Positions 16,082 to 51,960 of a stretch of DNA of 64,000 nt are shown here, piece after piece. The first letter of the stretch is position 1. Every line of letters begins with the position of its first letter. The notes beneath the pieces were generated by a model. It saw only the letters and a list, made by a program, of their open reading frames with translations. It made no database searches and was not told the origin of the DNA. The translations under genes and the position numbers were made by a program. Origin of the DNA: a phage; the NCBI GenBank assembly GCA_012490745.1, contig GCA_012490745.1_3925.1. One strand, written 5' to 3'.

Positions 16082-17497
16082 ATGAGCGAGTTATTTAAAC
16101 ATGCGCACCTTCATGCAGGTCGAACTGAAAATGGTGCTGTAAACCATACTTCATCAATGTCTGCTCTTGTAGATTTTTACAAAGCTGCTGGTTCAAGCCG
16201 TAGCAATGTAGAAATCTTACCAGACTTGTTCTACAAAGCTTTGCGTGAGGATGTTGATGTTGCAGTTCGTATTTTACTGCATATGCGAGATGTACGAGAA
16301 GGTATGGGTGAGCGTAAAGCCTTCAGAACTGTTTTGCTTCAAGCGATTGAAGATAAAGTTTTAGAACCTACACAGGTTCTTCGCATTATGGATAAGATTG
16401 CAGAACTTGGTCGTTTTGATGACTTCAAAATCTTCGTAGGTACTCGTTTCGAGACAGATGCCTTCAAACATTTAGAAGCAGCATTACTAGACCATGCAAC
16501 AGCAGGTTTAGCAGCTAAGTGGTTGCCACGAGTAAAACCACGCCACAAACAGTTTGTAAAACGTTTCTGCAAGTTTGCCAACTTGAGTGAGAAAGAGTAC
16601 CGCACACTGTTGTCTGCACTATCTGATACAGTTGAGCAAAAAATCTCTGCTAATGAGTTTGGTAAGATTGATTACAGCAAGATTCCTTCACTTGCTGCTG
16701 CACGTTACCAAAAACTCTTTAACCGTAAAGATGGAGAGCGCTACAAAGCTTACATCGAGTCCTTATCAAAGGGTGAGACTAAGATTAATGCTGGTGCTGT
16801 TTACCCATACGATGTGATTAAATCTGTTAAGTATGGTAATGCAGATGTTGCTAATGAGCAGTGGAAAGCACTACCAAACTGGATGGCAGAGGGTGAAAAC
16901 ATTCTATGTATGTCTGATGTTTCAAGTTCAATGTCTTGGGTGAATTTTGGTTCAATTACTGCTCTTGATATTGGTGTTTCACTTGCATTGTATGTAGCAG
17001 AACGTAATACAGGTTGCTTTAAGAATGAGTTGATGGTTTATTCAACAAACCCTCACTTCATTGAACTGAGTGGTGATTTACGAAACCGTCATCGTCAGGT
17101 AATGCGTCATGTTGAATACGGTTCAACTAACTTACAAGCAGCTTTTGACCGCATTCTTGAGACAGGTAAGAGAAACAACTTGACTCAGAAAGATATGCCA
17201 AGTAAGCTTATCATCTTCTCTGATATGGAGTTCAATCAGGTTGACGGTGCAAATGGTCGTACAAACTTTGAAGCAATTCGTAGTAAGTACAAAAAAGCTG
17301 GATACGAAATGCCACAACTGGTATTCTGGTACTTAGCAAACCGTAGTGGTACTTGCGAAGTGTCTGTTAAGGATAACGGTGTAGCAATGGTATCAGGGTT
17401 CTCTCCAGCCACTTTAAAAGCTCTGCTTGGTGGTGAGAAGTTTGACCCAACCAGCGTAATGCTCAAAGCAGTAATGATTGACCGTTACATCTGGTAA
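16082..17497 (+). CDS. putative vWA/MIDAS-like domain protein (471 aa)
   Basis: Possible MIDAS-like D-x-S-x-S (MSDVSSSMS) followed by hydrophobic beta-strand-like segments and IIFSDMEF. Confidence 0.45.
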   Translation: MSELFKHAHLHAGRTENGAVNHTSSMSALVDFYKAAGSSRSNVEILPDLFYKALREDVDVAVRILLHMRDVREGMGERKAFRTVLLQAIEDKVLEPTQVLRIMDKIAELGRFDDFKIFVGTRFETDAFKHLEAALLDHATAGLAAKWLPRVKPRHKQFVKRFCKFANLSEKEYRTLLSALSDTVEQKISANEFGKIDYSKIPSLAAARYQKLFNRKDGERYKAYIESLSKGETKINAGAVYPYDVIKSVKYGNADVANEQWKALPNWMAEGENILCMSDVSSSMSWVNFGSITALDIGVSLALYVAERNTGCFKNELMVYSTNPHFIELSGDLRNRHRQVMRHVEYGSTNLQAAFDRILETGKRNNLTQKDMPSKLIIFSDMEFNQVDGANGRTNFEAIRSKYKKAGYEMPQLVFWYLANRSGTCEVSVKDNGVAMVSGFSPATLKALLGGEKFDPTSVMLKAVMIDRYIW

Positions 17498-17499
17498 AA

Positions 17500-17545
17500 A
17501 GTTTTAAAAAGGGTATTGACAATGTGTTTAATACCCTTTAATATG
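17500..17545 (+). promoter_or_regulatory. Sigma70-like promoter TTGACA-17nt-TAATAT upstream of the tRNA array
   Basis: gggtaTTGACAatgtgtttaataccctTTAATATg; second candidate TTGACA at 17609. Confidence 0.55.
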
Positions 17546-17662
17546 TTCTACATAGAAACGAAATGAGAGCTTTTCTAAGATACTGAAAAATATTTTAAAA
17601 AAGTTCTTGACAACCACTAAAAAATAATGTTAAAGTGGTTACATAGAGTTTGAAAAGTTTAT

Positions 17663-17739
17663 CTCTGTTTAGCTCAGCTTGGTAGAGCGTTCCGTTTGGG
17701 GCGGTAAGGCCGGAGGTTCAAGTCCTCCAACAGAGACCA
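17663..17739 (+). tRNA. tRNA-Pro (anticodon TGG)
   Basis: Acceptor ctctgtt/aacagag, T-arm ggagg-ttcaagt-cctcc, anticodon loop tttgggg, CCA encoded. Confidence 0.6.
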
Positions 17740-17746
17740 AATTAAT

Positions 17747-17824
17747 GTTCCAGTAGACAAAATGGTAAAGTCACCACTCTTTCAAAGTGGATATCTGAGG
17801 GTTCAAATCCCTTCTGGAACGCCA
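17747..17824 (+). tRNA. tRNA-Glu (TTC)
   Basis: Acceptor gttccag/ctggaac, anticodon arm ccact-ctttcaa-agtgg, T-loop ttcaaat, discriminator G. Confidence 0.7.
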
Positions 17825-17915
17825 GTTTTGACAGAAGACCAATTACAGCAAACTTAATCTTATTCATCTGAAGGTAAATCGGACAAAGAAGAGATTTGGT
17901 CTGGTCATTAAGAAT

Positions 17916-17992
17916 TGCGGGTATAGAGAAAGGGCGTCTCACATGTCTCATTAGCATGGTATCGGCAGGTTCGACTCCTGCACCCGCCTCCA
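17916..17992 (+). tRNA. tRNA-Met (CAT); possibly initiator
   Basis: Anticodon arm catgt-ctcatta-gcatg, T-arm gcagg-ttcgact-cctgc, 1:72 mismatch. Confidence 0.55.
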
Positions 17993-18069
17993 ATTTTGCA
18001 GAAGACCGTATTCAGCAACAAAATACTTTTTGCGGATAAAAGAAAAAACACGGTCTGGCAATGTATTAA

Positions 18070-18146
18070 GGTTAGGAAGCACATAAGGTATGTGCGGTCG
18101 CCTGTTAAGCGAATGGCACAGGGTTCGAATCCCTGACTAACCGCCA
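18070..18146 (+). tRNA. tRNA-Asn (GTT)
   Basis: Anticodon loop ctgttaa, T-arm caggg-ttcgaat-ccctg, CCA encoded. Confidence 0.65.
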
Positions 18147-18155
18147 AATTTAAAT

Positions 18156-18243
18156 GTGTCGTTATCCCGTAGATGGTAGCGGTGGGGACTGTAAATCCCT
18201 TGTCATTGAGACTCGGTAGGTTCGACTCCTACACGGCACACCA
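18156..18243 (+). tRNA. tRNA-Tyr (GTA), class II
   Basis: Anticodon arm gggga-ctgtaaa-tccct, long variable arm ttgtcattgagactcg, T-arm gtagg-ttcgact-cctac. Confidence 0.7.
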
Positions 18244-18249
18244 AATAAA

Positions 18250-18327
18250 GGTTATGTAGTTTAATCTGGTTAAAATACTCCCCTGTCACGGGAGATGATG
18301 AGGGTTCAAATCCCTTCGTAACCGCCA
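18250..18327 (+). tRNA. tRNA-Asp (GTC)
   Basis: Anticodon arm ctccc-ctgtcac-gggag, T-loop ttcaaat, discriminator G. Confidence 0.7.
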
Positions 18328-18643
18328 AATTATAATAAGTATTTCAAAATGATGTTTGAGAGGGCTATTTTAGCCCCTCCCTTAAAGAGTTCTTACGAGT
18401 ATTCTTTAAAGGAGCAGAAGACCAAATTCAGCAAGTACGTATGATATTTTCAAGCCAATTTAATTTTGAAAAAATTTATAAAACTTGGTCTGGCTCAACA
18501 ATTTTACAGAAGACCGTTTACAGCAAAACTTAAACAATCTATTTCTCCGGTAAAGAAAAGGCGAAGGTTCGATTCCTTCACTCGGCAGATGTCGAGTTGG
18601 TGTAATGGTAGCACTTAAGATGATAAACAACGGTCTGGTAATT

Positions 18644-18779
18644 ATCTTTGTAGATAAGTTATTAAGCTTACCTGTGAGTATGCGACCACAAAGGGTGAAA
18701 GGGTAAATTCTAGATTTAAACCCAAAAAGGCACATCGCTACAGACCTTAAGCAAGTCTGGGTAGCTTATCTACAAAGAT
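18644..18779 (+). ncRNA. Candidate structured small RNA: 15-bp perfect inverted repeat (atctttgtagataag / cttatctacaaagat) enclosing 106 nt with internal hairpins
   Basis: Perfect long-range stem plus internal hairpins cagac-cttaagcaa-gtctg and gggt...accc; lies between tRNA genes. Confidence 0.4.
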
Positions 18780-18787
18780 AATTTAAT

Positions 18788-18863
18788 GGAAGTGTAGCAG
18801 AATGGTGATGCGGCAGACTTTTAATCTGACAGGCGATGGGTTCGAATCCCTCCACTTCTACCA
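18788..18863 (+). tRNA. tRNA-Lys (TTT)
   Basis: Acceptor ggaagtg/cacttct, anticodon loop cttttaa, T-loop ttcgaat; paralog of 20023-20098. Confidence 0.6.
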
Positions 18864-18867
18864 AAAT

Positions 18868-18944
18868 GGTTCAGTCGCAGATAAGGTAATGCAAGGGTCT
18901 CATAAGCCCTATGAATGTGGGTTCGATTCCCATCTGAACCTCCA
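18868..18944 (+). tRNA. tRNA with CAT anticodon (elongator Met, or Ile2 if lysidine-modified)
   Basis: Acceptor ggttcag/ctgaacc, anticodon arm agggt-ctcataa-gccct, T-loop ttcgatt. Confidence 0.6.
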
Positions 18945-18945
18945 A

Positions 18946-19021
18946 GCTGGTATAGTTAAGAAGGTTATAACACTCCCCTGATAAGGGAACATCGGTGGTT
19001 CGATTCCACCTACCAGTACCA
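18946..19021 (+). tRNA. tRNA-Ile (GAT)
   Basis: D-arm gtta...taac, anticodon loop ctgataa, T-arm ggtgg-ttcgatt-ccacc. Confidence 0.65.
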
Positions 19022-19029
19022 ATTTCAAT

Positions 19030-19075
19030 AAAGTTGTTGACACTGAGATGTGACTACTTTATAGTAACCTTAGTT
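19030..19075 (+). promoter_or_regulatory. Internal promoter TTGACA-17nt-TATAGT within the tRNA array
   Basis: aaagttgTTGACActgagatgtgactacttTATAGTaacc. Confidence 0.55.
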
Positions 19076-19269
19076 TTCGTTGCGTAGCGTCTATTTTGCA
19101 AATTTAAAATAAATGCAAACGACAATGTTTTTCTGGCAGTAGCTTGATAGGCTAAACACCAGTGAGGTCTTCCAATCCCTCATCAAAGAATTTGGCGTAC
19201 TAGCCCACGGTATGATTAATAAGGTGGGCATCTTTAAGGGCTTTCTAAGAGAGTCTTTAAAGATAATTA

Positions 19270-19351
19270 CGGGGCGTATCTCAGCGGTCTTCTAAACCGC
19301 CGTTAACCGAGTAAGTGGAGTATGCGGGTTCGAGTCCTGCCGCCTCGACCA
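19270..19351 (+). tRNA. atypical tRNA-like gene (candidate Arg-TCT); cloverleaf not resolved
   Basis: Good acceptor cggggcg/cgcctcg and T-arm gcggg-ttcgagt-cctgc; perfect hairpin gcggt-cttctaa-accgc sits where the D-arm should be. Confidence 0.4.
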
Positions 19352-19494
19352 ATTTAGTTAGCAGATTACTTAGACGACCTAAGCGGGTCTTCCTGTAGGG
19401 AGGTGGTCTGTATCTCATGTTTTCCAGAACATGTAAATAATCTGAGAAGGGGCTTTACAGTGTTGAGATAATACGGTAAGCTTCGAATTATAGT

Positions 19495-19577
19495 ATGGGA
19501 CGATGTTAAGACTCTAAGGCATGAGCAACGGCCTCCAAAACCGTTTCAAAGGGGTTCAACTCCTCCGTCCCATGCCA
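19495..19577 (+). tRNA. tRNA-like gene, candidate Trp (CCA), with 7-8 extra nt in the 5' region
   Basis: Perfect acceptor atgggac/gtcccat, anticodon loop ctccaaa, T-loop ttcaact. Confidence 0.45.
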
Positions 19578-19590
19578 AAGTCTTATTAGG

Positions 19591-19680
19591 GGTAGGTAGC
19601 GGCTAATGGCAGCCAAACAGTCTTGAAAACTGTTGCCACTGTAGAGATACGGTGAGGGTTCGACTCCTTTACTTACCGCC
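19591..19680 (+). tRNA. tRNA-Ser (TGA), class II
   Basis: Anticodon arm acagt-cttgaaa-actgt, long variable arm, T-arm gaggg-ttcgact-ccttt, discriminator G. Confidence 0.65.
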
Positions 19681-19937
19681 TAATAAGATTTTTAAAGCCA
19701 AGCTTCATTCGGATGTTGCTTTGGTATACCGCGTGTATTGTCGTACACACAGATAAAGCACCTAGTAGGTGTCACGGAGAAGAGATAATATCAAGCTCTC
19801 CAAAGGTTCTAGTCACCGGATTAAACAAGACTATGCAAAGGCCTTTTTAGGTCTTTTTAGAGGGCTTCTAAGGTTATTACAGCTTGTTGTGGAACCTTGT
19901 TGCTTAGGTTCTTAGAAGTTCTCTAAAAAGATTTAAT

Positions 19938-20015
19938 GGGAGATTGACGGTAATTGGTAAACCTACCATCCTTAGAAGTTGGTGTTTGAGGGTTCGAATC
20001 CCTTGTCTCCTACCA
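19938..20015 (+). tRNA. tRNA with TAG anticodon (Leu) but class I length
   Basis: Anticodon arm ccatc-cttagaa-gttgg, Leu-like D-loop aattggtaaac, discriminator A, T-arm gaggg-ttcgaat-ccctt. Confidence 0.5.
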
Positions 20016-20022
20016 AATTAAT

Positions 20023-20098
20023 GCAGGTGTAGCAAAATGGTTATGCGGCTGACTCTTAATCAGTAAGACGATGGGTTCAATTCCCTCCACCTGTACCA
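20023..20098 (+). tRNA. tRNA-Lys (CTT)
   Basis: Anticodon arm gctga-ctcttaa-tcagt, T-loop ttcaatt, acceptor gcaggtg/cacctgt. Confidence 0.6.
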
Positions 20099-20104
20099 AA
20101 CAAT

Positions 20105-20180
20105 GGGGATGTAGTTTACATGGTTAAAACATAAGTTTTGCAAACTTAAGTACAGGGTTCAATTCCCTGCTTCTCCACCA
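20105..20180 (+). tRNA. tRNA-Ala (TGC)
   Basis: D-arm gttt...aaac, anticodon arm taagt-tttgcaa-actta, T-arm caggg-ttcaatt-ccctg. Confidence 0.65.
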
Positions 20181-20186
20181 ATTAGT

Positions 20187-20261
20187 GCATCCATAGTTTA
20201 AACGGGAAAATTACAGTCTTCCAAACTGAGGTTGAGGGTTCGATTCCCTCTGGATGCTCCA
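20187..20261 (+). tRNA. tRNA-Gly (TCC)
   Basis: Perfect acceptor gcatcca/tggatgc, anticodon loop cttccaa, T-arm gaggg-ttcgatt-ccctc. Confidence 0.65.
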
Positions 20262-20266
20262 AACAA

Positions 20267-20344
20267 TGCTGCTTTCGTATAATTGGCTATTACACATCCC
20301 TTGTAAGGATGGAAATGCAGGTTCGAGTCCTGTGAGCAGCACCA
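20267..20344 (+). tRNA. tRNA-Thr (TGT)
   Basis: Anticodon arm catcc-cttgtaa-ggatg, T-loop ttcgagt. Confidence 0.65.
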
Positions 20345-20440
20345 ATTCAGAGGTCAAGTGAAAGACCGCTTTGAGTCAACTGAAGACCGTAACAAATTCC
20401 ACGGAGTTGAGTTAGCGGCACAACTCCAGACCTCTTTCAT

Positions 20441-20515
20441 ACTCGCTTAGTTTATATGGTAAAACATCACCCTTACAAGATGAAGAAAAAGGTTCAAGTC
20501 CTTTAGTGAGTACCA
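20441..20515 (+). tRNA. tRNA-Val (TAC)
   Basis: D-arm gttt-atatggta-aaac, anticodon loop cttacaa, T-arm aaagg-ttcaagt-ccttt. Confidence 0.6.
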
Positions 20516-20516
20516 T

Positions 20517-20594
20517 GTTCCAGTATCCCAATTGGCAGAGGATGCAAGCTCAAACCTTGTACTAGTGACGGTTCGAATCCGTCTTGGAACACCA
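20517..20594 (+). tRNA. tRNA with CAA anticodon (Leu) but short variable arm
   Basis: Anticodon arm (t)gcaag-ctcaaac-cttgt(a), Leu-like D-loop aattggcagag, discriminator A, T-arm gacgg-ttcgaat-ccgtc. Confidence 0.5.
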
Positions 20595-20599
20595 ATTTT

Positions 20600-20675
20600 G
20601 CAGGATTAGTTCAAATGGATAGAGCAACAGTCTACGAAGCTGTTAATAGGGGTTCGAATCCCTTATCCTGCGCCA
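20600..20675 (+). tRNA. tRNA-Arg (ACG)
   Basis: Perfect acceptor gcaggat/atcctgc, anticodon arm acagt-ctacgaa-gctgt, T-loop ttcgaat. Confidence 0.65.
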
Positions 20676-20694
20676 ATTTAAAGAGGCTATTTAG

Positions 20695-21252
20695 ATGAGA
20701 TATTTGAAGTATGCTTCATGGATTTTCTTAGCTTTGTTAGAGCCATTTGCAGCAATCTTAGCAGTTATCTTAGCACCTTTTGTAGTTCCATTCTACAGTG
20801 AGAAGAAAGGACACTTACCTTTCGGGTTCAGATGGATGGAGACATATGACAACCCAATTGATGGTGATGAAGGTCACGTTAAAAGATGGGCTAATATTAG
20901 ATGGATTGGTAAACTAGGTGTCTACATGCAAAGAGTCGGATGGCTCTGGAGAAACAAAGCTTATAACTTCTCTTACCATGTATTAGGAAGAGATGTAAGA
21001 GATGTTACTAAGTGGAAAGGTAATATCAACGTAAGTTCTGACCCCGAAGATAATCAGACAGGTTATCTCCTAATGTGGAACAGTAATGCTTGGGGATTAT
21101 TCGCTTTTATCCCATCAATTAAAATCTTTGGTAAACAGTTTTACTGGAGAATTTATATTGGATGGAAACTTAAAAGTGTTGTCCCAGAAGAAAGAGCATT
21201 CTCAAGGGAAAGAGTTATGTTGGCATTCTTTATTCATCCACTGAGAAAGTAA
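20695..21252 (+). CDS. hypothetical Trp-rich membrane protein (185 aa) embedded in the tRNA array
   Basis: ORF with SD aaGAGG; N-terminal TM helix (WIFLALLEPFAAILAVILAPFVVPF). Confidence 0.55.
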   Translation: MRYLKYASWIFLALLEPFAAILAVILAPFVVPFYSEKKGHLPFGFRWMETYDNPIDGDEGHVKRWANIRWIGKLGVYMQRVGWLWRNKAYNFSYHVLGRDVRDVTKWKGNINVSSDPEDNQTGYLLMWNSNAWGLFAFIPSIKIFGKQFYWRIYIGWKLKSVVPEERAFSRERVMLAFFIHPLRK

Positions 21253-21260
21253 AGATTTAA

Positions 21261-21336
21261 AGGGGATTAGTTTACAAGGTTAAAACCTCGGTCTTTGAAA
21301 TCGAAGAAGTTGGTTCAATTCCAACATCCCCCGCCA
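21261..21336 (+). tRNA. tRNA-Gln (TTG)
   Basis: Anticodon arm tcggt-ctttgaa-atcga, T-arm gttgg-ttcaatt-ccaac, A1:C72 mismatch. Confidence 0.55.
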
Positions 21337-21338
21337 AT

Positions 21339-21416
21339 GCTCCATTACTCCAATTGGCAGAGAGGCCAGACTTAAAATCTGTGTTATGTATCGGTTCGAA
21401 TCCGATATGGAGTACC
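21339..21416 (+). tRNA. tRNA with TAA anticodon (Leu) but short variable arm
   Basis: Paralog of 20517-20594 (D-loop aattggcagag), anticodon loop cttaaaa, discriminator A. Confidence 0.5.
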
Positions 21417-21422
21417 AAATTT

Positions 21423-21497
21423 AGCGGTATAGCATAACTGGCAATGCAACAGTCTCTGAAGCTGTCCTATTAAGGTTCAAATCCTTATGCCGCTGCC
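21423..21497 (+). tRNA. tRNA-Gln (CTG)
   Basis: D-arm gcat...atgc, anticodon arm acagt-ctctgaa-gctgt, T-arm taagg-ttcaaat-cctta. Confidence 0.55.
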
Positions 21498-21529
21498 ACT
21501 TCTAAGGATTCTTACGAGAGTCCTTAAAT

Positions 21530-21605
21530 GTGGCCTTATCATAAAAGGTAATGACCCATGCTGTGAACATGGTCTATACGGGTTCAAATCCCGTAGGTCA
21601 CCCCA
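21530..21605 (+). tRNA. tRNA-His (GTG)
   Basis: Anticodon arm ccatg-ctgtgaa-catgg, discriminator C73, T-arm acggg-ttcaaat-cccgt. Confidence 0.65.
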
Positions 21606-21610
21606 ATTTA

Positions 21611-21688
21611 TAGTCCAAGTAGCTTATATGGTTAAAGCGCGTGTCTGAAAAACATGAGAAGAGGGTTCAAATCCCACTGGACTACCAA
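21611..21688 (+). tRNA. tRNA-Phe (GAA)
   Basis: Perfect acceptor tagtcca/tggacta, anticodon loop ctgaaaa, T-loop ttcaaat. Confidence 0.65.
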
Positions 21689-21703
21689 TTTCAAAGGTGC
21701 TTA

Positions 21704-22438
21704 ATGAAAGAGATGACAGAACAAGGTAAGGAGATTTTTAATCTCTTAAAAACTGGTAAAGGGTTTTCTAACCCCCTTATTACTGGTGCAGCAGTTCTCG
21801 GTGGAACCGTAGCTGCCTCTACATCACTTGTAAGCTCTATTAGCTCTGTATCAGACCCTACAGTAAAGGATAAGCTTGTTGCTGCTGGACTTACAACAGT
21901 TCTGCTTAACAGCTTTACCACGAGTCTGACAAGCACTACATCAACTACCAAAACACTAACAGATTACGGTCAAAAGTCCATTGATGAGTTTTCATCACGT
22001 ATGCAGGTAGCAAAAGGTTATTCTAATGTTATGGGTGCAGCAGGTGAACAAGTTGGCTGTACACCATTTAGTGGTATTATGGGTGTTGCTACAGAGTATG
22101 GTCAAAAAGCTATTGATACGATTAACAGTACACTAGATAGTGTTAATGGTGTGTTAAGTGACTTACAAGATGCTATTGATAAGGGTCTTGATACTGTTTC
22201 TGATTTAGCTAATCAGGCTGTTAGCAAGATTAATGAAGGTATCTCAAAGATTACAGCTTATGCAGATGAAGTTGTGCAGATGATTGAAGAAGAAGCTGCC
22301 CTTATTGCAGAGTACCTTAAAACGAATATCAATGGGTTCTTAGCAGGTATCTTACCAGACTGGTTTGATGATGCTTGTAAAACTGGTGTGATTGACACTA
22401 TTGCAACACCAGAAATGAAGAACGCATTACAGAAATAA
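21704..22438 (+). CDS. hypothetical Ser/Thr-rich protein (244 aa)
   Basis: The ORF-track start 21641 lies inside tRNA-Phe; ATG 21704 has SD aaaGGtg 5 nt upstream. Confidence 0.5.
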   Translation: MKEMTEQGKEIFNLLKTGKGFSNPLITGAAVLGGTVAASTSLVSSISSVSDPTVKDKLVAAGLTTVLLNSFTTSLTSTTSTTKTLTDYGQKSIDEFSSRMQVAKGYSNVMGAAGEQVGCTPFSGIMGVATEYGQKAIDTINSTLDSVNGVLSDLQDAIDKGLDTVSDLANQAVSKINEGISKITAYADEVVQMIEEEAALIAEYLKTNINGFLAGILPDWFDDACKTGVIDTIATPEMKNALQK

Positions 22439-22439
22439 T

Positions 22440-22532
22440 GGAAGATTAACCCTAAAAGGTAAGGGAGCAGTTTGCTAAACTGCCAGTAGCTGAGAAATCG
22501 GTGTACCAGTTCAAGTCTGGTATCTTCCTCCA
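22440..22532 (+). tRNA. tRNA-Ser (GCT), class II
   Basis: Perfect acceptor ggaagat/atcttcc, anticodon arm gcagt-ttgctaa-actgc, long variable arm, T-arm accag-ttcaagt-ctggt. Confidence 0.7.
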
Positions 22533-22536
22533 ATTT

Positions 22537-22612
22537 GAATCCGTGACAGAAATGGCTATGTGCCTGTCTGCAAAACAGGTTTATAAGGGTTCGAGTCCCT
22601 TCGGATTCTCCA
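22537..22612 (+). tRNA. tRNA-Cys (GCA)
   Basis: Perfect acceptor gaatccg/cggattc, anticodon arm cctgt-ctgcaaa-acagg, discriminator U73. Confidence 0.7.
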
Positions 22613-22834
22613 AGTTATTTTACTCTCTCTCAATTAAAATAATAATAATGCCCTGCTATAAGTATTCTTCCTTTCGCTACCGAAGAGTATTTTTAGACAG
22701 GGCTTTTTTACAGAGCTATACTTTATAAGAAGACTTATACAGTATGTCTCTGACGTACATTGTGGTTTCTCCTTGACGGTCTCTGTGCCGTCTTTTTTAA
22801 GGGGAAACATGGTTAATTATTTGGAGAAAACATA

Positions 22835-24674: not shown

Positions 24675-26141
24675 ATGGCAGATATTACAGAAACACAAGA
24701 AAGCTTACCACCATTTAGAATGGGTGAAGTAGGTTCTTTGGGTCTGAAGGTTAAGAATGGAAGAATCTATGAAGAACCTCGTCAGGCACTAAGGTTCCCT
24801 GAAAGTATTAAAACTTTCCAATTAATGATGCGTGACCCTGCTGTAGCAGCATCTGTAAATATTATTAAGATGTTTGTCAGAAAAGTCAACTGGAGATTCG
24901 TACCTCCAAAGGGAAAAGAGCAAGACCCTAAAATGCTTGAAAGAGCAGACTTCTTTAATTCTTTAATGGATGACATGGAGCATGATTGGGCAGATTTTAT
25001 TAATTCTGTAATGTCATTCTGCACTTATGGGTTCTGTGTTAACGAGAAAGTTTATAAGAAGCGACAGGGTAAAAAAGGAAAGTACCAGTCAAAATTTGAT
25101 GATGGTCTAATTGGATGGGCTAAATTACCAATCAGAAACCAATCAACACTTGATAAGTGGTATTTTGACGAAGACTTTAGAAAAGTTACTGGTGTCAGAC
25201 AGAATCTGAGAAATGTTTCACATATTGCTGGAGCAATTAATCTTGGAGAGAGACCATTAACAAGAAAACTTCCACGAGCTAAATTCATGCTGTTTAAGTA
25301 TGACGATGAATATGGAAACCCAGAAGGTCGTTCACCATTACTCAATGCCTATGTACCGTGGAAGTATAAAGTTCAGATTGAAGAGTACGAAGCTGTTGGT
25401 GTTTCAAGAGACTTGGTAGGTATGCCAAAAATTGGTTTACCACCAGATTATCTGGATGAAAATGCAGAACCTGAAAAGAAAGCTTTCGTACAATACTGCA
25501 AAACTGTTGTTAACGATATGATTGCTAACGATAGAGCAGGTTTAATCTGGCCTAGATATATCGACCCAGATACTAAAGAGGATATTTTCGAGTTCTCATT
25601 AGTTTCTAGACAGGGTGCTAAAGCATACGATACAGGTTCTATTATTGACAGATATTCCAAGCAGATTATGATGGCATTTATGTCAGATGTTCTTGCTATG
25701 GGTCAGTCAAAATATGGTTCATTCTCTCTTGCAGATTCTAAGACGAGTTTACTAGCAATGTCAGTAGATATTCTGCTGAAGCAAATTAAGAACGTAATTA
25801 ACCGTGATTTAGTTGCACAGACTTATGCTCTTAATATGTGGGATGATGAAGAACATGTACAAATCACATATGATGATATCGAAACTCCAGACCTTGAAGC
25901 AATTGGTTCTTATATTCAGAAGACTGTTGCAGTAGGTGCTTTGGAAGTTGACAAAGAGCTATCTAACAAACTTAGAGAGCATATTGGTCTCCCTCCTGCT
26001 GATGAGTCTCAGCCAGTATCTGAAAAGCTTTCTCCAAATAGCCAAAGCCGCTCAGGAGATGGTTATAAGACCGCTGGAGAAGGTACTGCAAAGACACCTT
26101 CAGCGAAAGACCCAAGCACAGCAAATAAGGCAAATAAATAA
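24675..26141 (+). CDS. putative portal protein (488 aa)
   Basis: Size and position directly after the terminase; SD aGGTGa before ATG 24675. Confidence 0.6.
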   Translation: MADITETQESLPPFRMGEVGSLGLKVKNGRIYEEPRQALRFPESIKTFQLMMRDPAVAASVNIIKMFVRKVNWRFVPPKGKEQDPKMLERADFFNSLMDDMEHDWADFINSVMSFCTYGFCVNEKVYKKRQGKKGKYQSKFDDGLIGWAKLPIRNQSTLDKWYFDEDFRKVTGVRQNLRNVSHIAGAINLGERPLTRKLPRAKFMLFKYDDEYGNPEGRSPLLNAYVPWKYKVQIEEYEAVGVSRDLVGMPKIGLPPDYLDENAEPEKKAFVQYCKTVVNDMIANDRAGLIWPRYIDPDTKEDIFEFSLVSRQGAKAYDTGSIIDRYSKQIMMAFMSDVLAMGQSKYGSFSLADSKTSLLAMSVDILLKQIKNVINRDLVAQTYALNMWDDEEHVQITYDDIETPDLEAIGSYIQKTVAVGALEVDKELSNKLREHIGLPPADESQPVSEKLSPNSQSRSGDGYKTAGEGTAKTPSAKDPSTANKANK

Positions 26142-26641
26142 TGGCTGAAGTTATCTCTATTTCAAATGCTACACGAGTGCATTCGTATAGGGGTGTCCTT
26201 ATCATTACTGACAAGTTATCTGTAGAGGCTGGCTCAAGGGTCAGTCTTTCAGGTTATGTAAGTGATGGTGGAACCTCTGACGTTTTCACTATTTGCAGGT
26301 TACTTGATGCACCAATGAGTGGAAAACCGTTTATTTTAGGAAATTGTAGTGAAATTGTTAAAATTCCATTTGACAGTTCATGCCTTTTGGGTGTAAAGTT
26401 ATATAACTGCGAGAATAAACGTATCAATGTTAATAGCATTGAAGCCGCTTTCATTACCCTCGACACTGCATTTCAATCTCCAATGACAGTTAATAAAGAA
26501 ACAAACAGACTTGAATACATTTTTTCACAAAATGATTACAAAGTACTTGTCAAAGGTAAAGTATATGCTATGATTGTAAATGTGGTAGATGAATCTGGTA
26601 ACCATTCAACAGTCCTTAAACAAAAAGTAAGGTTTAATTAA
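26141..26641 (+). CDS. hypothetical head-module protein (166 aa)
   Basis: ORF, start overlaps portal stop. Confidence 0.45.
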   Translation: MAEVISISNATRVHSYRGVLIITDKLSVEAGSRVSLSGYVSDGGTSDVFTICRLLDAPMSGKPFILGNCSEIVKIPFDSSCLLGVKLYNCENKRINVNSIEAAFITLDTAFQSPMTVNKETNRLEYIFSQNDYKVLVKGKVYAMIVNVVDESGNHSTVLKQKVRFN

Positions 26642-26973
26642 TGGGAACATTAACTATTGATGGTAAGAATAAAATCCTCGCCACGCTAAACCCAACGACT
26701 ATTATTTTACACAATGTAGACCCAACGGCAGACCCTACAGCAAATAAGGTTACTCAGCCAGTGGCTATTTATTTTTCTGAACCGGATAATGGCTTAATTG
26801 CCTCAGAAGACACAGTTAATATTACTGTTCCAGCTTCTGCAACGGTCTCACACTATAGCTTGTGGGATGCTAACGATAAATGCGTGGCAACTGGTGCTCT
26901 TAGCAAACCTCAATTCTTTGCTGAAGAAGGTATCTATGTTATCTCTTCAGTCTCTGTAGATTTAAACAAATAG
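26641..26973 (+). CDS. hypothetical head-module protein (110 aa)
   Basis: ORF, translationally coupled. Confidence 0.45.
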   Translation: MGTLTIDGKNKILATLNPTTIILHNVDPTADPTANKVTQPVAIYFSEPDNGLIASEDTVNITVPASATVSHYSLWDANDKCVATGALSKPQFFAEEGIYVISSVSVDLNK

Positions 26974-50179: not shown

Positions 50180-50481
50180 TGACTTGTCAACAGATTTTAT
50201 AGCTTATTTGGCAGATTTTTTATAAGGCTACTGCCATCCTTCCAAACTATACCAAACCTAACCCCACCTAACCCTACCACACCAGACCTAACCTAACCTT
50301 GTTAAAAGACCCTCTTAAAGACCTTTTAAAAAGGTAAGTCTCATTTTAATGTAGCTGAGACTAACTACCCATACCAGACCCTACCTTACCAAACCAGACC
50401 TCACCCTACCCCACCATACCGTATACTACCTCATTAAAAGACCCTCTTAAAGACCTTTTAAAAAGGAGCCTCCGAAGAGGC
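50180..50481. repeat. Left flanking repeat block: hairpins, C/A-rich degenerate repeats (ccaaacc / accttacc / ccagacc) and 69-nt core 50302-50370 identical to 51713-51781
   Basis: 69-nt core ttaaaagaccctcttaaagaccttttaaaaaggtaagtctcattttaatgtagctgagactaactaccc occurs twice; terminator-like hairpin gcctc-cgaa-gaggc at 50466-50481. Confidence 0.7.
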
Positions 50482-51569: not shown

Positions 51570-51960
51570 GAACCCTCAACAGAAGACTCTTTAGAAACTT
51601 GGTAGATTTTTAACGTGGCTACTACCATCCACCCATACCATACCGAACCTTACCTTACCAAACCAGACCGCGCCTTACCAAACCAGACCAAACATTACTT
51701 TACCCTACCTTATTAAAAGACCCTCTTAAAGACCTTTTAAAAAGGTAAGTCTCATTTTAATGTAGCTGAGACTAACTACCCGCACTTTACCGCACCGGAC
51801 CTTACCGGACCGCACATCACCGCACTAAACCAGACATCACATTACCTGACCACACCAAACCAAACATCACATTACTTAAAAACCCTCTTAGAAGACTCTT
51901 AAGTGATGTTGGTGAGTACCCGTTGGTTTATGCTGCTCAGTATACTCACCAAATTTTCTA
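51570..51960. repeat. Right flanking repeat block, homologous to 50180-50481
   Basis: Hairpin ggtag...ctacc covaries with ggcag...ctgcc in the left copy; same C/A-rich repeats; identical 69-nt core. Confidence 0.7.

What the first reader, a model, noticed from the sequence alone, without database searches (positions are those of the whole stretch)
17826..18520. Repeated non-tRNA spacer units in the tRNA array (cagaagacc ... cagcaa ... ggtctgg)
At least four spacer units (about 17826-17910, 17994-18069, 18411-18493, 18503-18520) share a start like (t)ttg(a)cagaagacc-N5-cagcaa, and most have the short inverted partner ggtctgg. A related copy is at 20380-20400 inside a spacer with nested inverted repeats (agaggtc...gacctct and ggagttg...caactcc, 20345-20440). 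Units are tRNA-sized but lack tRNA features; candidates are small RNAs, processing-site cassettes or internal promoters.
Basis: seen in the sequence. Interest (0 to 1): 0.5.

Follow-up and report, generated by a model that had tools for sequence, protein, structure and literature searches.

The report
Y-RNA-like genes beside phage Ro60
The repeated "spacer units" in this Felix O1-like phage's tRNA array are four small structured RNA genes, one carrying a circularly permuted tRNA-like domain. They belong to a widespread, uncatalogued phage RNA family that always sits next to a Ro60-like RNA-binding protein gene, so they are most likely that protein's Y-RNA partners.

Summary
CAGAAGACC-N5-CAGCAA occurs exactly four times in the window, all on the + strand, against 0.11 expected. 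Each copy is followed by GGTCTGG.

All four units fold the same way:
- an outer 4-bp stem that differs but stays paired between copies;
- an AGA/G internal loop;
- a 6-8 bp AGACC/GGUCU stem;
- single-stranded U-N-CAGCAA;
- a variable interior.

Unit 4 runs to 18641, not 18520. It encloses V arm, T arm, closed 7-bp acceptor stem and D arm, the anatomy of bacterial YrlA Y RNAs.

The ORF 332 nt upstream (16082-17497) has a Ro60 fold. Its Bas63 orthologue, gp130, is reported to be Ro60-like and to counter the Ppl defence.

The same RNA design lies beside homologues of this protein in 49 of 75 distant viral contigs, always on the gene's strand. It also occurs in a mycobacteriophage and a Listeria phage. 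A covariance model built only from distant phages ranks units 2 and 1 as the two best hits in the window. An Ounavirinae relative that lacks the protein also lacks the units.

Verdict: Y-RNA-like partner RNAs with a new recognition motif. Binding and function are inferred. The "related copy" at 20380-20400 is not a member.

The parts
16082..17497 (+). Ro60-like (TROVE-ring + vWA) protein gene, 471 aa; orthologue of Bas63 gp130; proposed protein partner of the units
   Evidence: ORF list. Pfam gives only DUF2828 + DUF7788. The AF2 model has pLDDT 89 and pTM 0.88. In Foldseek against PDB the top 12 hits are all full-length Ro60/TROVE (phiLo phage Ro60, Xenopus Ro, D. radiodurans Rsr; E 2e-8 to 2e-6, TM 0.4-0.6), followed by a gap to vWA-only hits. 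About 33% identical over the full length to mycobacteriophage 'Ro-like RNA binding protein'. bas63_0130 is the syntenic orthologue.
17516..17636 (+). Two strong sigma-70-like promoters (17516-17544, 17607-17636) upstream of tRNA-Pro; likely start of the transcript that carries units 1-4
   Evidence: Consensus scan: 10/12 matches each. The next strong + strand site is at 19037. No + strand terminator-like site lies between 17640 and 19000. These are consensus matches only.
17829..17907 (+). Unit 1 (79 nt), short Y-like RNA. Outer stem 17829-17832/17904-17907; AGA loop 17833-17835 opposite G 17903; inner stem 17836-17842/17896-17902; CAGCAA 17846-17851; interior 5-bp hairpin with a 7-nt loop. 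Lies 4 nt after tRNA-Glu and 8 nt before tRNA-Met
   Evidence: The independent model R2 scores it 24.6 bits, E 0.004, second-best hit in the window. The interior hairpin stem changes UCUGA/UCGGA <-> AUUUC/GAAAU <-> UUUUC/GAAAA in relatives while the 7-nt loop length is kept.
17996..18061 (+). Unit 2 (66 nt), short Y-like RNA. Outer stem 17996-17999/18058-18061; AGA 18000-18002 opposite G 18057; inner stem 18003-18008/18051-18056; CAGCAA 18013-18018; hairpin CUUUU-UGCGGAU-AAAAG. Lies 3 nt after tRNA-Met and 8 nt before tRNA-Asn
   Evidence: R2 scores it 31.6 bits, E 1e-4, best hit in the window. The orthologous outer stem is UUGC/GCAA in some genomes and UUAC/GUAA in others, a compensatory change. 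The same UGCGGAU loop occurs in a mycobacteriophage unit.
18412..18496 (+). Unit 3 (85 nt), short Y-like RNA. Outer stem 18412-18415/18493-18496; AGA 18416-18418 opposite G 18492; inner stem 18419-18425/18485-18491; CAGCAA 18429-18434; interior 7-8 bp hairpin
   Evidence: In Mooglevirus the outer stem is GAGC/GUUC, a G.U pair possible only in + strand RNA. R2 does not report the window's own unit 3 at E<=10. It finds the orthologues only weakly (E 0.01-0.26). R1, which was trained on this unit, scores it 30.6 bits.
18504..18641 (+). Unit 4 (138 nt), YrlA-type Y-like RNA. It has the same closing module: outer 18504-18507/18638-18641, AGA 18508-18510 opposite G 18637, inner 18511-18518/18629-18636, CAGCAA 18521-18526. 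The module encloses a circularly permuted tRNA-like domain: V arm 18542-18558, T arm 18563-18579, closed acceptor stem 18580-18586/18591-18597, D arm 18599-18615
   Evidence: Fold. Across 9 orthologues the acceptor stem is 100% paired, with 3 of 7 pairs changed on both sides (sequences). After re-permutation ARAGORN -i calls it a tRNA with a 48-nt 'intron', which is the closing module. Rfam finds only a partial tRNA match at 18530-18580.

Best explanation
The four units are genes for small non-coding RNAs of the Y-RNA kind. Their proposed partner is the Ro60-like protein encoded 332 nt upstream (16082-17497).

The proposed mechanism has four steps:
1. The units are transcribed together with the tRNAs from the promoters at about 17516 and 17607. 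They are set free by the enzymes that trim the neighbouring tRNAs: RNase P at the next tRNA's 5' end and 3' trimming of the previous tRNA.
2. Each RNA closes on itself through its 5' and 3' ends. This gives an outer stem, an AGA/G internal loop, an AGACC/GGUCU stem, and then the single-stranded U-N-CAGCAA. This module is the docking site for the Ro60-like ring. It plays the role that the bulged stem and the CGAA motif play in known Y RNAs.
3. The variable interior is the effector end. In units 1-3 it is a short hairpin, which in units 1 and 2 looks like an anticodon arm (5-bp stem, 7-nt loop). In unit 4 it is a tRNA-like domain that could be recognised by tRNA enzymes. [quoted passage not shown] It could also tether a host nuclease such as PNPase.
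4. The resulting RNPs reshape host RNA metabolism or defence. The Bas63 orthologue of the protein counters the Ppl defence system.

What is shown here: the sequence family, its structure, covariation, strand, and genomic coupling to a protein with a Ro60 fold. What is inferred: transcription and processing, protein binding, and biological role.
For: Motif and fold:
- Four exact motif copies against 0.11 expected, with a common fold in all four.
- RNA-level conservation on the + strand: AGGCC (G.U) and GAGC/GUUC in Mooglevirus; UUGC/GCAA <-> UUAC/GUAA in unit 2 orthologues; unit 4 acceptor stem fully re-written but paired in Sf17 and Mordin.

Protein:
- The upstream ORF has a Ro60 fold.
- It is about 33% identical to mycobacteriophage Ro-like proteins.
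- Bas63 gp130 is the orthologue. It is reported as Ro60-like and as a Ppl counter-defence gene, and its authors only conjectured Y RNAs among the tRNA genes.

Anatomy:
- It matches YrlA as described by Chen et al. 2014: within 4 kb of the Ro gene, on the same strand, V-T-AS-D order, at least two Y RNAs per genome of which one is tRNA-like, and a 7-bp acceptor stem that is cut by RNase P in M. smegmatis.

Family-wide evidence:
- 32 aligned units from diverse phages share invariant U-N-CAGCAA, an invariant G-C second pair and a 3' G. The 7-bp helix is 98% paired, with 6 of 7 pairs changed on both sides.
- Model R2, built from 24 distant units with no Ounavirinae, ranks units 2 and 1 first and second in the window. 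It also finds the orthologues in other Ounavirinae.
- Model R1 gives 55 hits at E<=0.05 in 49 of 75 distant loci, all on the strand of the Ro-like gene and mostly within a few hundred nt of it.
- Long members in distant loci again carry T, AS and D arms.
- The same tandem units flank the Ro-like gene in mycobacteriophage LilDestine and Listeria phage List-36.
- Erwinia phage phiEa21-4 has a tRNA array but neither the protein nor the units.
Against: - No experiment links these RNAs to the protein. Expression, RNA ends and binding are all inferred.
- The defining YrlA sequence motif GNCGAA(N)G is absent, and no Rfam family matches.
- The protein is not recognised as TROVE by Pfam or by sequence or profile search of the PDB. 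Only the fold comparison links it to Ro60, with TM 0.4-0.6.
- The units used for the family alignment were picked by a scan that required a stem, so the pairing percentage is partly by construction. The background for that scan is high: 31% of + strand CAGCAA sites have a stem, against 15-16% on the - strand and in shuffles.
- Within Ounavirinae most helices of unit 4 never vary, so only the acceptor stem has covariation there.
- The window's unit 3 is not found by the independent model, and its orthologues only weakly. Unit 4 is too long for the model.
Confidence: 0.75

Rival explanations
1. Processing-site cassettes: the conserved stem-loop modules are recognition sites for an endoribonuclease (RNase III, RNase E or a phage enzyme). 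The enzyme would cut the polycistronic tRNA precursor, and the excised pieces would have no function of their own.
For: The units lie between tRNAs with only 3-8 nt linkers. A stem / asymmetric loop / stem design resembles phage RNase III sites (established knowledge, not tested here).
Against: The same units flank the Ro-like gene in many contigs with no tRNA gene in the 9-kb locus, such as L137, L139, L142, L147 and L159, and in LilDestine. Most tRNA junctions in this array (1-10 nt spacers) need no such cassette. The helix is only 10-12 bp, short for RNase III. The invariant part is a single-stranded octamer plus a tRNA-like domain in one copy per genome.
Confidence: 0.07
2. Decaying relics: the units are pseudogenes derived from a rearranged (permuted) tRNA gene and its duplicates. 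They would be conserved only because the phages are closely related.
For: Units 1, 2 and 4 share extended similarity (ACAGCAAA-CUUAA; GGUAA-type hairpin loops), and units 1-3 look like unit 4 with the tRNA body deleted. One genome annotates a 'putative tRNA pseudogene' in this region and another a 'tRNA-OTHER'.
Against: The closing module and the U-N-CAGCAA motif persist in phages whose Ro-like proteins are only 29-53% identical and whose hosts span Proteobacteria, Actinobacteria and Firmicutes. Helices are kept by compensatory changes. Relics would not stay on the strand of one particular gene in 55 of 55 cases.
Confidence: 0.05
3. DNA-level elements: internal promoters, or recombination or mobile-element sites (inverted repeats bounding tRNA 'cassettes').
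For: Unit 1 begins with TTGACA. Inverted repeats bound a variable interior. The gene content of the array varies between relatives, for example an HNH endonuclease inserted in phage nataliec and extra sequence between units 2 and 3 in L033.
Against: No promoter-like site is scored in any unit, and TTGACA is absent from units 2-4. G.U-type substitutions (AGGCC, GAGC/GUUC) keep pairing only in + strand RNA; they would be A.C mismatches on the other strand or in cruciform DNA. All copies have one orientation. The conserved octamer is unpaired.
Confidence: 0.03
4. Structured small RNAs that are real but act independently of the Ro60-like protein. For example, they could be decoys or inhibitors for host tRNA-targeting nucleases or tRNA-modifying enzymes, or regulators of the neighbouring genes' mRNAs.
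For: Units 1 and 2 carry anticodon-arm-like hairpins (5-bp stem, 7-nt loop) and unit 4 a tRNA-like body. The units sit in a tRNA array, and phage tRNAs are known to counter tRNA-cleaving defences (established knowledge; the PhageMaP text says the same).
Against: This does not explain the tight, strand-specific linkage to the Ro-like gene across unrelated phage lineages, including ones without tRNA arrays. Nor does it explain co-absence in phiEa21-4. It is compatible with, rather than exclusive of, Ro binding.
Confidence: 0.1

Closest known systems
YrlA-type bacterial Y RNAs (S. Typhimurium, M. smegmatis, mycobacteriophage ET08; Chen et al. 2014, PMC4201824)
   Same: Encoded within 4 kb of a Ro60-type gene on the same strand. 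The 5' and 3' ends pair into a stem. The interior holds a V arm, T arm, closed acceptor-like stem and D arm in that order, with tRNA-type invariant bases. One tRNA-like RNA plus one or more shorter Y RNAs per genome. The 7-bp acceptor stem matches that of M. smegmatis YrlA, which RNase P cuts.
   Different: The conserved GNCGAA(N)G motif is absent; the invariant motif here is U-N-CAGCAA directly 3' of the stem's 5' strand. The partner protein belongs to the DUF2828/DUF7788 clade, which Pfam does not call TROVE. The genes are embedded in a tRNA operon. There are four copies.
Yrl1/Yrl2 of Thermus phage phiLo with phage Ro60 (PMC12135203)
   Same: Phage-encoded Ro60-fold protein with two adjacent stem / internal-loop / stem RNAs whose loop motif mediates binding. 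phiLo Ro60 is among the best structural matches of the window's ORF.
   Different: phiLo RNAs carry CGAA and lie upstream of the gene. No tRNA array. Binding and a PNPase complex were shown in vitro for phiLo; nothing has been shown for these units.
Short bacterial Y RNAs (YrlB, Yrn2) and metazoan Y RNAs
   Same: Units 1-3 are small RNAs of about 65-85 nt with a terminal stem, an internal loop and a hairpin, and they accompany a tRNA-like sibling.
   Different: No sequence similarity. The metazoan Ro-binding sequence GGUCCGA lies on the 5' strand; here GGUCU lies on the 3' strand.
Bas63 gp130 / Ppl counter-defence (bioRxiv 10.1101/2024.10.10.617714)
   Same: gp130 is the orthologue of the window's ORF, directly upstream of the same tRNA array. 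Its authors proposed that it works with Y RNAs.
   Different: They guessed that some annotated tRNA genes might be the Y RNAs. The candidates found here are the unannotated spacers, two of which are overlain by probably spurious minus-strand ORFs in the Bas63 record.
Circularly permuted tRNA genes (red alga Cyanidioschyzon) and two-piece tmRNA genes (from memory)
   Same: Gene order is 3' half then 5' half, with a closed acceptor stem that could be opened by RNase P.
   Different: Those mature into functional tRNA or tmRNA. Here no anticodon loop exists; a long protein-docking helix takes the place of the anticodon loop. No aminoacylation identity is evident.
Stable RNAs C and D (species 1 and 2) of the phage T4 tRNA cluster (from memory)
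   Same: Small non-tRNA RNAs co-transcribed and co-processed within a phage tRNA gene cluster.
   Different: No known link to a Ro-like protein. Sequences were not compared here.

Membership tests
YrlA-type Y RNA (Chen et al. 2014) | Encoded within about 4 kb of a Ro60 orthologue, on the same strand | tested here: met
   The units begin 332 nt and end 1144 nt after the stop of ORF 16082-17497, on the same strand. The ORF has a Ro60 fold.
YrlA-type Y RNA (Chen et al. 2014) | Partner protein is a Ro60/TROVE orthologue | tested here: inconclusive
   Fold level: yes. The top 12 PDB matches are all full-length Ro60. Sequence level: Pfam gives DUF2828/DUF7788, not TROVE. There is no PDB hit by sequence or profile. 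It is about 33% identical to mycobacteriophage proteins annotated as Ro-like.
YrlA-type Y RNA (Chen et al. 2014) | GNCGAA(N0-1)G motif near the 5' end | tested here: not met
   Reading of all four units and of 32 family members shows no such motif. The invariant motif is U-N-CAGCAA.
YrlA-type Y RNA (Chen et al. 2014) | 5' and 3' ends pair to form the stem that holds the protein-binding site | tested here: met
   Common closing helices in all units. Across 32 family members the helix is 98% paired, with 6 of 7 pairs changed on both sides. Caveat: the selection required a stem.
YrlA-type Y RNA (Chen et al. 2014) | tRNA-like domain with V, T, AS (closed acceptor) and D stem-loops in this order, with tRNA-type conserved bases | tested here: met
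   Unit 4 only: fold; U8, A14, G18G19, A21 and UUCGA in the T loop by reading; acceptor-stem covariation; ARAGORN calls the re-permuted sequence a tRNA. Units 1-3 lack it, as YrlB-type RNAs do.
YrlA-type Y RNA (Chen et al. 2014) | Bound by the Ro60 orthologue; carries tRNA modifications (Psi55, D) | not testable with these tools
   Needs RIP/EMSA and modification mapping.
Any Rfam 15 family | Match to a curated covariance model | tested here: not met
   cmscan at E<=1 over 17400-22800 gives no plausible family for units 1-3. The only match inside one is Dicty_Class_I_RNA in unit 2 (24 bits against a gathering score of 41.5, E 0.38). Unit 4 gets only a partial sub-threshold tRNA match (22 bits). 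No Y-RNA family hit in 15 related loci.
Canonical tRNA gene | Linear cloverleaf recognised by ARAGORN or the Rfam tRNA model | tested here: not met
   None of the units is called. Unit 4 is recognised only after circular permutation and with a 48-nt insertion.
Sigma-70 promoter | -35 and -10 hexamers with 16-18 nt spacing | tested here: not met
   No + strand site inside any unit; the only site scored inside one is a weak 9/12 match on the - strand in unit 3 (18470-18441). Strong + strand sites lie at 17516, 17607 and 19037 instead.

The most novel reading that the evidence does not exclude
These units define a second, phage-borne lineage of Ro-Y RNA particles with its own recognition code: U-N-CAGCAA plus a helix that starts A-G-R and ends Y-C-U-G. 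The lineage is paired with the DUF2828 clade of Ro60-like proteins across phages of Proteobacteria, Actinobacteria and Firmicutes. In Felix O1-like phages the RNAs, not the protein alone, would be the active part of the counter-defence against Ppl. The tRNA-like unit 4 would be opened by RNase P and CCA-tailed into a two-piece tRNA mimic that recruits or blocks a host nuclease, while the anticodon-arm-like hairpins of units 1 and 2 would act as baits for RNA-targeting immunity.
Probability: 0.2. Interest if true: 0.8.

Novelty: new variant of a known kind. Interest (0 to 1): 0.62.

Why it matters
- It turns a published guess, that Bas63 gp130 may work with Y RNAs hidden among its tRNA genes, into four precisely delimited, testable RNA genes.
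- These genes lie in spacers that annotation pipelines leave empty or cover with spurious ORFs.
- An uncatalogued RNA family is systematically coupled to a large clade of phage Ro60-like proteins. There were 2680 protein clusters with E<=1e-5 among the 8000 candidates scored in one search.
- This gives a consensus for finding the partners elsewhere. It also gives a natural system, E. coli phage plus the Ppl defence, for asking what Ro-Y RNA particles do during infection. That question is still open for bacterial and phage Ro60.

Tried and rejected
- Kink-turn reading of the AGA/G loop: the G.A/A.G tandem is absent (sequence reading).
- Archaeal bulge-helix-bulge splice motif and a true permuted tRNA gene: there is no anticodon loop, and units 1-3 lack a tRNA body.
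- Integron attC-like or MITE-like DNA element: rejected on the G.U evidence and the single orientation.
- RNase III site: the helix is too short, and the units occur without tRNAs.
- T4 MotA-box-like promoter on the opposite strand: does not explain the compensatory pairs.
- Exact-pattern scan of IMG/VR: apart from Felixounavirus-like contigs, the hits were single matches without the GGTCTG partner, so of no use for distant relatives.
- Sequence and profile searches of the PDB with the protein found nothing; only the fold search worked.
- Rfam has no matching family.
- The first alignment for the leave-out model was spoiled by one sequence and was redone.
- Attempt to tie the family to the 'highly transcribed non-coding regions' of Listeria phage CKA15: the only region with published coordinates (26,236-26,727) is not the unit cluster, which maps to 25,274-25,572. 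No expression evidence could be claimed.
- The supplementary tables of Chen et al. 2014 and two Wolin reviews were not available. I therefore could not check whether any Felix O1-like or DUF2828-type phage was in their list of 22 phages.
Full report
**Where we are.** The window is a Felix O1-like myovirus (Felixounavirus). Bases 17500-19100 are 99.9% identical to phage KhF3, and 301 phage records match. A tRNA array of 25 ARAGORN-called genes runs on the + strand from 17663 to 22612. The finding concerns the non-tRNA spacers near its start.

**The observation.** CAGAAGACC-N5-CAGCAA has exactly four matches in the 64-kb window on both strands, at 17832, 17999, 18415 and 18507. All are on the + strand, against 0.11 expected. 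Each is followed by GGTCTGG, at 17898, 18052, 18487 and 18632.

Folding each unit alone gives the same closing architecture four times:
- an outer 4-bp stem whose sequence differs between copies but stays paired (UGAC/GUCA, UUGC/GCAA, GAGC/GCUC, UUAC/GUAA);
- an internal loop, AGA on the 5' side and G on the 3' side;
- an inner stem AGACCR/YGGUCU of 6-8 bp;
- a single-stranded stretch ending in CAGCAA;
- a variable interior.

It runs from 18504 to 18641. Its interior contains a small hairpin, a T arm (GAAGG-UUCGAUU-CCUUC), a 7-bp acceptor-like stem closed by a 4-nt loop, and a D arm (GUG-UAAUGGUAG-CAC). In other words it is a circularly permuted tRNA-like cloverleaf. I joined the unit's ends and opened the acceptor loop. 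ARAGORN with introns allowed then calls a tRNA whose 48-nt 'intron' is the closing module. The linear sequence is not called by ARAGORN or the Rfam tRNA model.

**Conservation in close relatives.** All four units are present in Felixounavirus, Mooglevirus (Sf17, Sf14, KMM2, Mordin, ESh22) and Suspvirus (EcSzw-2). The substitutions are of the RNA kind:
- AGACC becomes AGGCC opposite GGUCU (a G.U pair).
- The outer stem of unit 3 becomes GAGC/GUUC.
- The outer stem of unit 2 is UUGC/GCAA in some genomes and UUAC/GUAA in others.
- The interior hairpin of unit 1 changes from UCUGA/UCGGA to AUUUC/GAAAU or UUUUC/GAAAA while keeping a 7-nt loop.
- The acceptor-like stem of unit 4 is ACUCGGC/GUCGAGU here, ACACGUU/GGCGUGU in Sf17 and ACCCUUC/GAAGGGU in Mordin. 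Across nine orthologues it is 100% paired, with three of seven pairs changed on both sides.

The other helices of unit 4 do not vary within this subfamily, so they say nothing either way.

**The neighbour that explains it.** The ORF just upstream (16082-17497, 471 aa) is called only DUF2828 + DUF7788 by Pfam. Neither the sequence nor a profile of it finds anything relevant in the PDB. A tblastn search showed that many phage records annotate its homologues as 'RNA-binding protein' or 'Ro-like RNA binding protein'. Mycobacteriophage examples are about 33% identical over the full length.

An AlphaFold2 model from a 34-sequence alignment (pLDDT 89, pTM 0.88) was compared with the PDB. The 12 best matches are all full-length Ro60/TROVE proteins: Thermus phage phiLo Ro60, Xenopus and human Ro60, and D. 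radiodurans Rsr. They score E 2e-8 to 2e-6 over about 515-560 aligned columns. After a gap come matches to the vWA domain alone, at E>=2e-3.

The orthologue in phage Bas63 (bas63_0130) has already been reported as structurally similar to Ro60 and as a counter to the Ppl defence system. [quoted passage not shown]

**Comparison with known Y RNAs.** Chen et al. 2014 describe bacterial and phage YrlA RNAs as follows:
- encoded within 4 kb of the Ro60 gene on the same strand;
- a stem formed by the two ends;
- a conserved GNCGAA(N)G motif near the 5' end;
- an interior with V, T, AS (closed acceptor) and D stem-loops that mimics tRNA.

[quoted passage not shown] M. smegmatis YrlA, which has a 7-bp acceptor stem, is cut by RNase P and receives CCA.

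Unit 4 matches this anatomy point by point, and units 1-3 match the shorter companions. The exception is the sequence motif. GNCGAA(N)G is absent, and U-N-CAGCAA occupies the equivalent place, directly 3' of the stem's 5' strand. In phage phiLo the analogous CGAA motif in the internal loop was shown to mediate Ro60 binding.

**A wide family.** I fetched 80 viral contigs that encode relatives of the protein; 75 of them are only 39-47% identical. I also fetched Yersinia phage P778 (53%). Reading the spacers of P778 and of contig L133 showed the same design with different stem sequences: GGACUGU/ACAGUCC, GGAUUC/GAAUCC, GAGCAC/GUGCUC, GGACAC/GUGUCC. In every case U-N-CAGCAA follows.

A scan anchored on CAGCAA found many more. 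Thirty-two short units align cleanly. They share invariant U-N-CAGCAA, an invariant G-C second pair of the helix and a nearly invariant G after the helix, none of which the scan demanded. The 7-bp helix is 98% paired, with 6 of 7 pairs changed on both sides and 89 such cells. Because the scan required a stem, that percentage is partly by construction. Its background is not negligible: 98 of 319 CAGCAA sites on the + strand passed, against 31 of 209 on the - strand and 111 of 674 in shuffles.

I therefore ran three tests that do not depend on the scan.
- Leave-out model: a covariance model built from 24 units of distant phages only, with no Ounavirinae, searched the whole window on both strands. 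Its two best hits are unit 2 (31.6 bits, E 1e-4) and unit 1 (24.6 bits, E 0.004). It also finds the units of the other Ounavirinae, down to E 2e-7. It finds nothing in three tRNA-array loci without a Ro-like gene.
- Strand test: the full model gives 55 hits at E<=0.05 in the 75 distant loci. They lie in 49 loci, all 55 are on the strand of the Ro-like gene, and most lie within a few hundred bases of it.
- Co-absence: Erwinia phage phiEa21-4 is an Ounavirinae member with a tRNA array at the same place. It has neither the protein (best tblastn E 0.26 over 91% of the genome) nor any unit.

Long members in distant loci again carry T arm, closed stem and D arm. The family also reaches beyond Proteobacteria phages. 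Mycobacteriophage LilDestine has three tandem units right after its 'Ro-like RNA binding protein' gene. The middle one has T, AS and D arms, and the first has the same UGCGGAU hairpin loop as the window's unit 2. Listeria phage List-36 has three units right before its Ro-like gene. About 30 of the 75 distant loci have tRNA genes on the Ro gene's strand, in roughly 20 of them beginning within a few hundred bases after its stop codon; the rest have none in the locus. The units are therefore linked to the protein, not to tRNAs.

**Most likely mechanism.** Shown here: four structured RNAs of one family, on the tRNA strand, next to a gene for a Ro60-fold protein, with family-wide strand-specific linkage.

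Inferred:
- The units are co-transcribed with the tRNAs from the strong promoter-like sites at 17516-17544 and 17607-17636. No + strand terminator-like site lies before 19000.
- The tRNA-processing enzymes release them, since only 3-8 nt separate units 1 and 2 from the flanking tRNAs.
- The closing module with U-N-CAGCAA docks onto the Ro60-like ring.
- The interiors act as effector ends: anticodon-arm-like hairpins in units 1 and 2, a longer hairpin in unit 3 and a tRNA-like domain in unit 4. By analogy with RYPER, they could recruit tRNA enzymes or a host exoribonuclease.
- The particle contributes to the counter-defence reported for gp130.

**Rivals.** Processing cassettes, promoters, DNA repeats and decaying pseudogenes each fail on at least one tested point: occurrence without tRNAs, no promoter consensus, G.U-only compatibility with + strand RNA, and deep conservation with compensatory change. 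A Ro-independent role as tRNA-mimic decoys cannot be excluded. It would not explain the linkage.

**The 'related copy'.** The spacer 20345-20440 folds strongly (z -3.8) and is almost invariant across Felixounavirus and Mooglevirus. However, it lacks CAGCAA and the 3' partner, neither family model hits it, and it has no Rfam match. It is a separate, unexplained structured element.

**Novelty.** Phage Ro60 homologues with adjacent Y-like RNAs are known from mycobacteriophages, CcrColossus, phage G and phiLo. The Ro60-likeness of the Felixounavirus protein is also published. New here:
- the location of the RNAs, in the spacers rather than the annotated tRNAs;
- their number;
- their distinct conserved motif;
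- the recognition that they belong to a broad family tied to the DUF2828 clade, which Rfam does not hold.

I could not see the phage list of Chen et al. 2014, so prior listing of some members cannot be excluded. I rate it a new variant of a known kind.

Noticed in passing
window 20345-20440: The tRNA-Thr/tRNA-Val spacer is a strongly folding element (MFE -29.4, z -3.8) that is almost invariant across Felixounavirus and Mooglevirus. It is not a member of the Y-like family and has no Rfam match. Function unknown.
   Followed up: partly
window 18645-18785: A perfect 17-bp inverted repeat (TTATCTTTGTAGATAAG ... CTTATCTACAAAGATAA) encloses about 105 nt immediately after unit 4. Many relatives match the query only up to about 18655-18675, so this piece is variable or absent in them.
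   Followed up: no
window 19270-19348 and 19497-19571: The first is a tRNA by Rfam (31.7 bits) that ARAGORN missed; relatives annotate tRNA-Arg(TCT) at this place. The second is a weak tRNA-like match (23 bits to tRNA-Sec) with an odd D region and a CCA anticodon-like triplet.
   Followed up: no
window 19022-19268: A strong promoter-like site (19037-19065, 11/12) is followed by about 200 nt of non-coding sequence with sub-threshold tmRNA-type matches (15-29 bits, gathering score 47). ARAGORN calls no tmRNA.
   Followed up: no
window 50374-50400 and 51663-51689 (- strand): GGTCTGG occurs 18 times in the window against 4.3 expected. Outside the units there are two minus-strand pairs spaced exactly 20 nt apart.
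   Followed up: no
L214 4440-4707 (Mycobacterium phage LilDestine): Three tandem family members lie directly after the 'Ro-like RNA binding protein' gene. The middle one has T, closed-acceptor and D arms. The first has the same UGCGGAU hairpin loop as the window's unit 2.
   Followed up: partly
L215 3112-3386 (Listeria phage List-36; = CKA15 25274-25572): Three tandem family members lie directly before the Ro-like gene, with an RtcB 'tRNA splicing ligase' gene 1.3 kb further on. The CKA15 paper reports three highly transcribed non-coding regions nearby. The one region with published coordinates is a different stretch.
   Followed up: partly
L208 2674-2948 (Bas63 bas63_0137, bas63_0138): Two short minus-strand 'hypothetical protein' ORFs are annotated: one over unit 4 and the 3' end of unit 3, the other over the spacer just after unit 4. 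They are probably annotation artefacts.
   Followed up: no
L122 4540-4974 (phage nataliec): An HNH nuclease gene is inserted between tRNA-Pro and unit 1, and tRNA-Glu is not annotated there. The array is a target of homing-type insertions.
   Followed up: no
L160 5895-6137, L157 3597-3711, L169 8184-8302, L136 3358-3485: Rfam tRNA matches of 113-128 nt (far longer than a tRNA) lie beside distant Ro-like genes. They may be intron-containing tRNAs or tRNA-like Y RNAs read through by the tRNA model.
   Followed up: no
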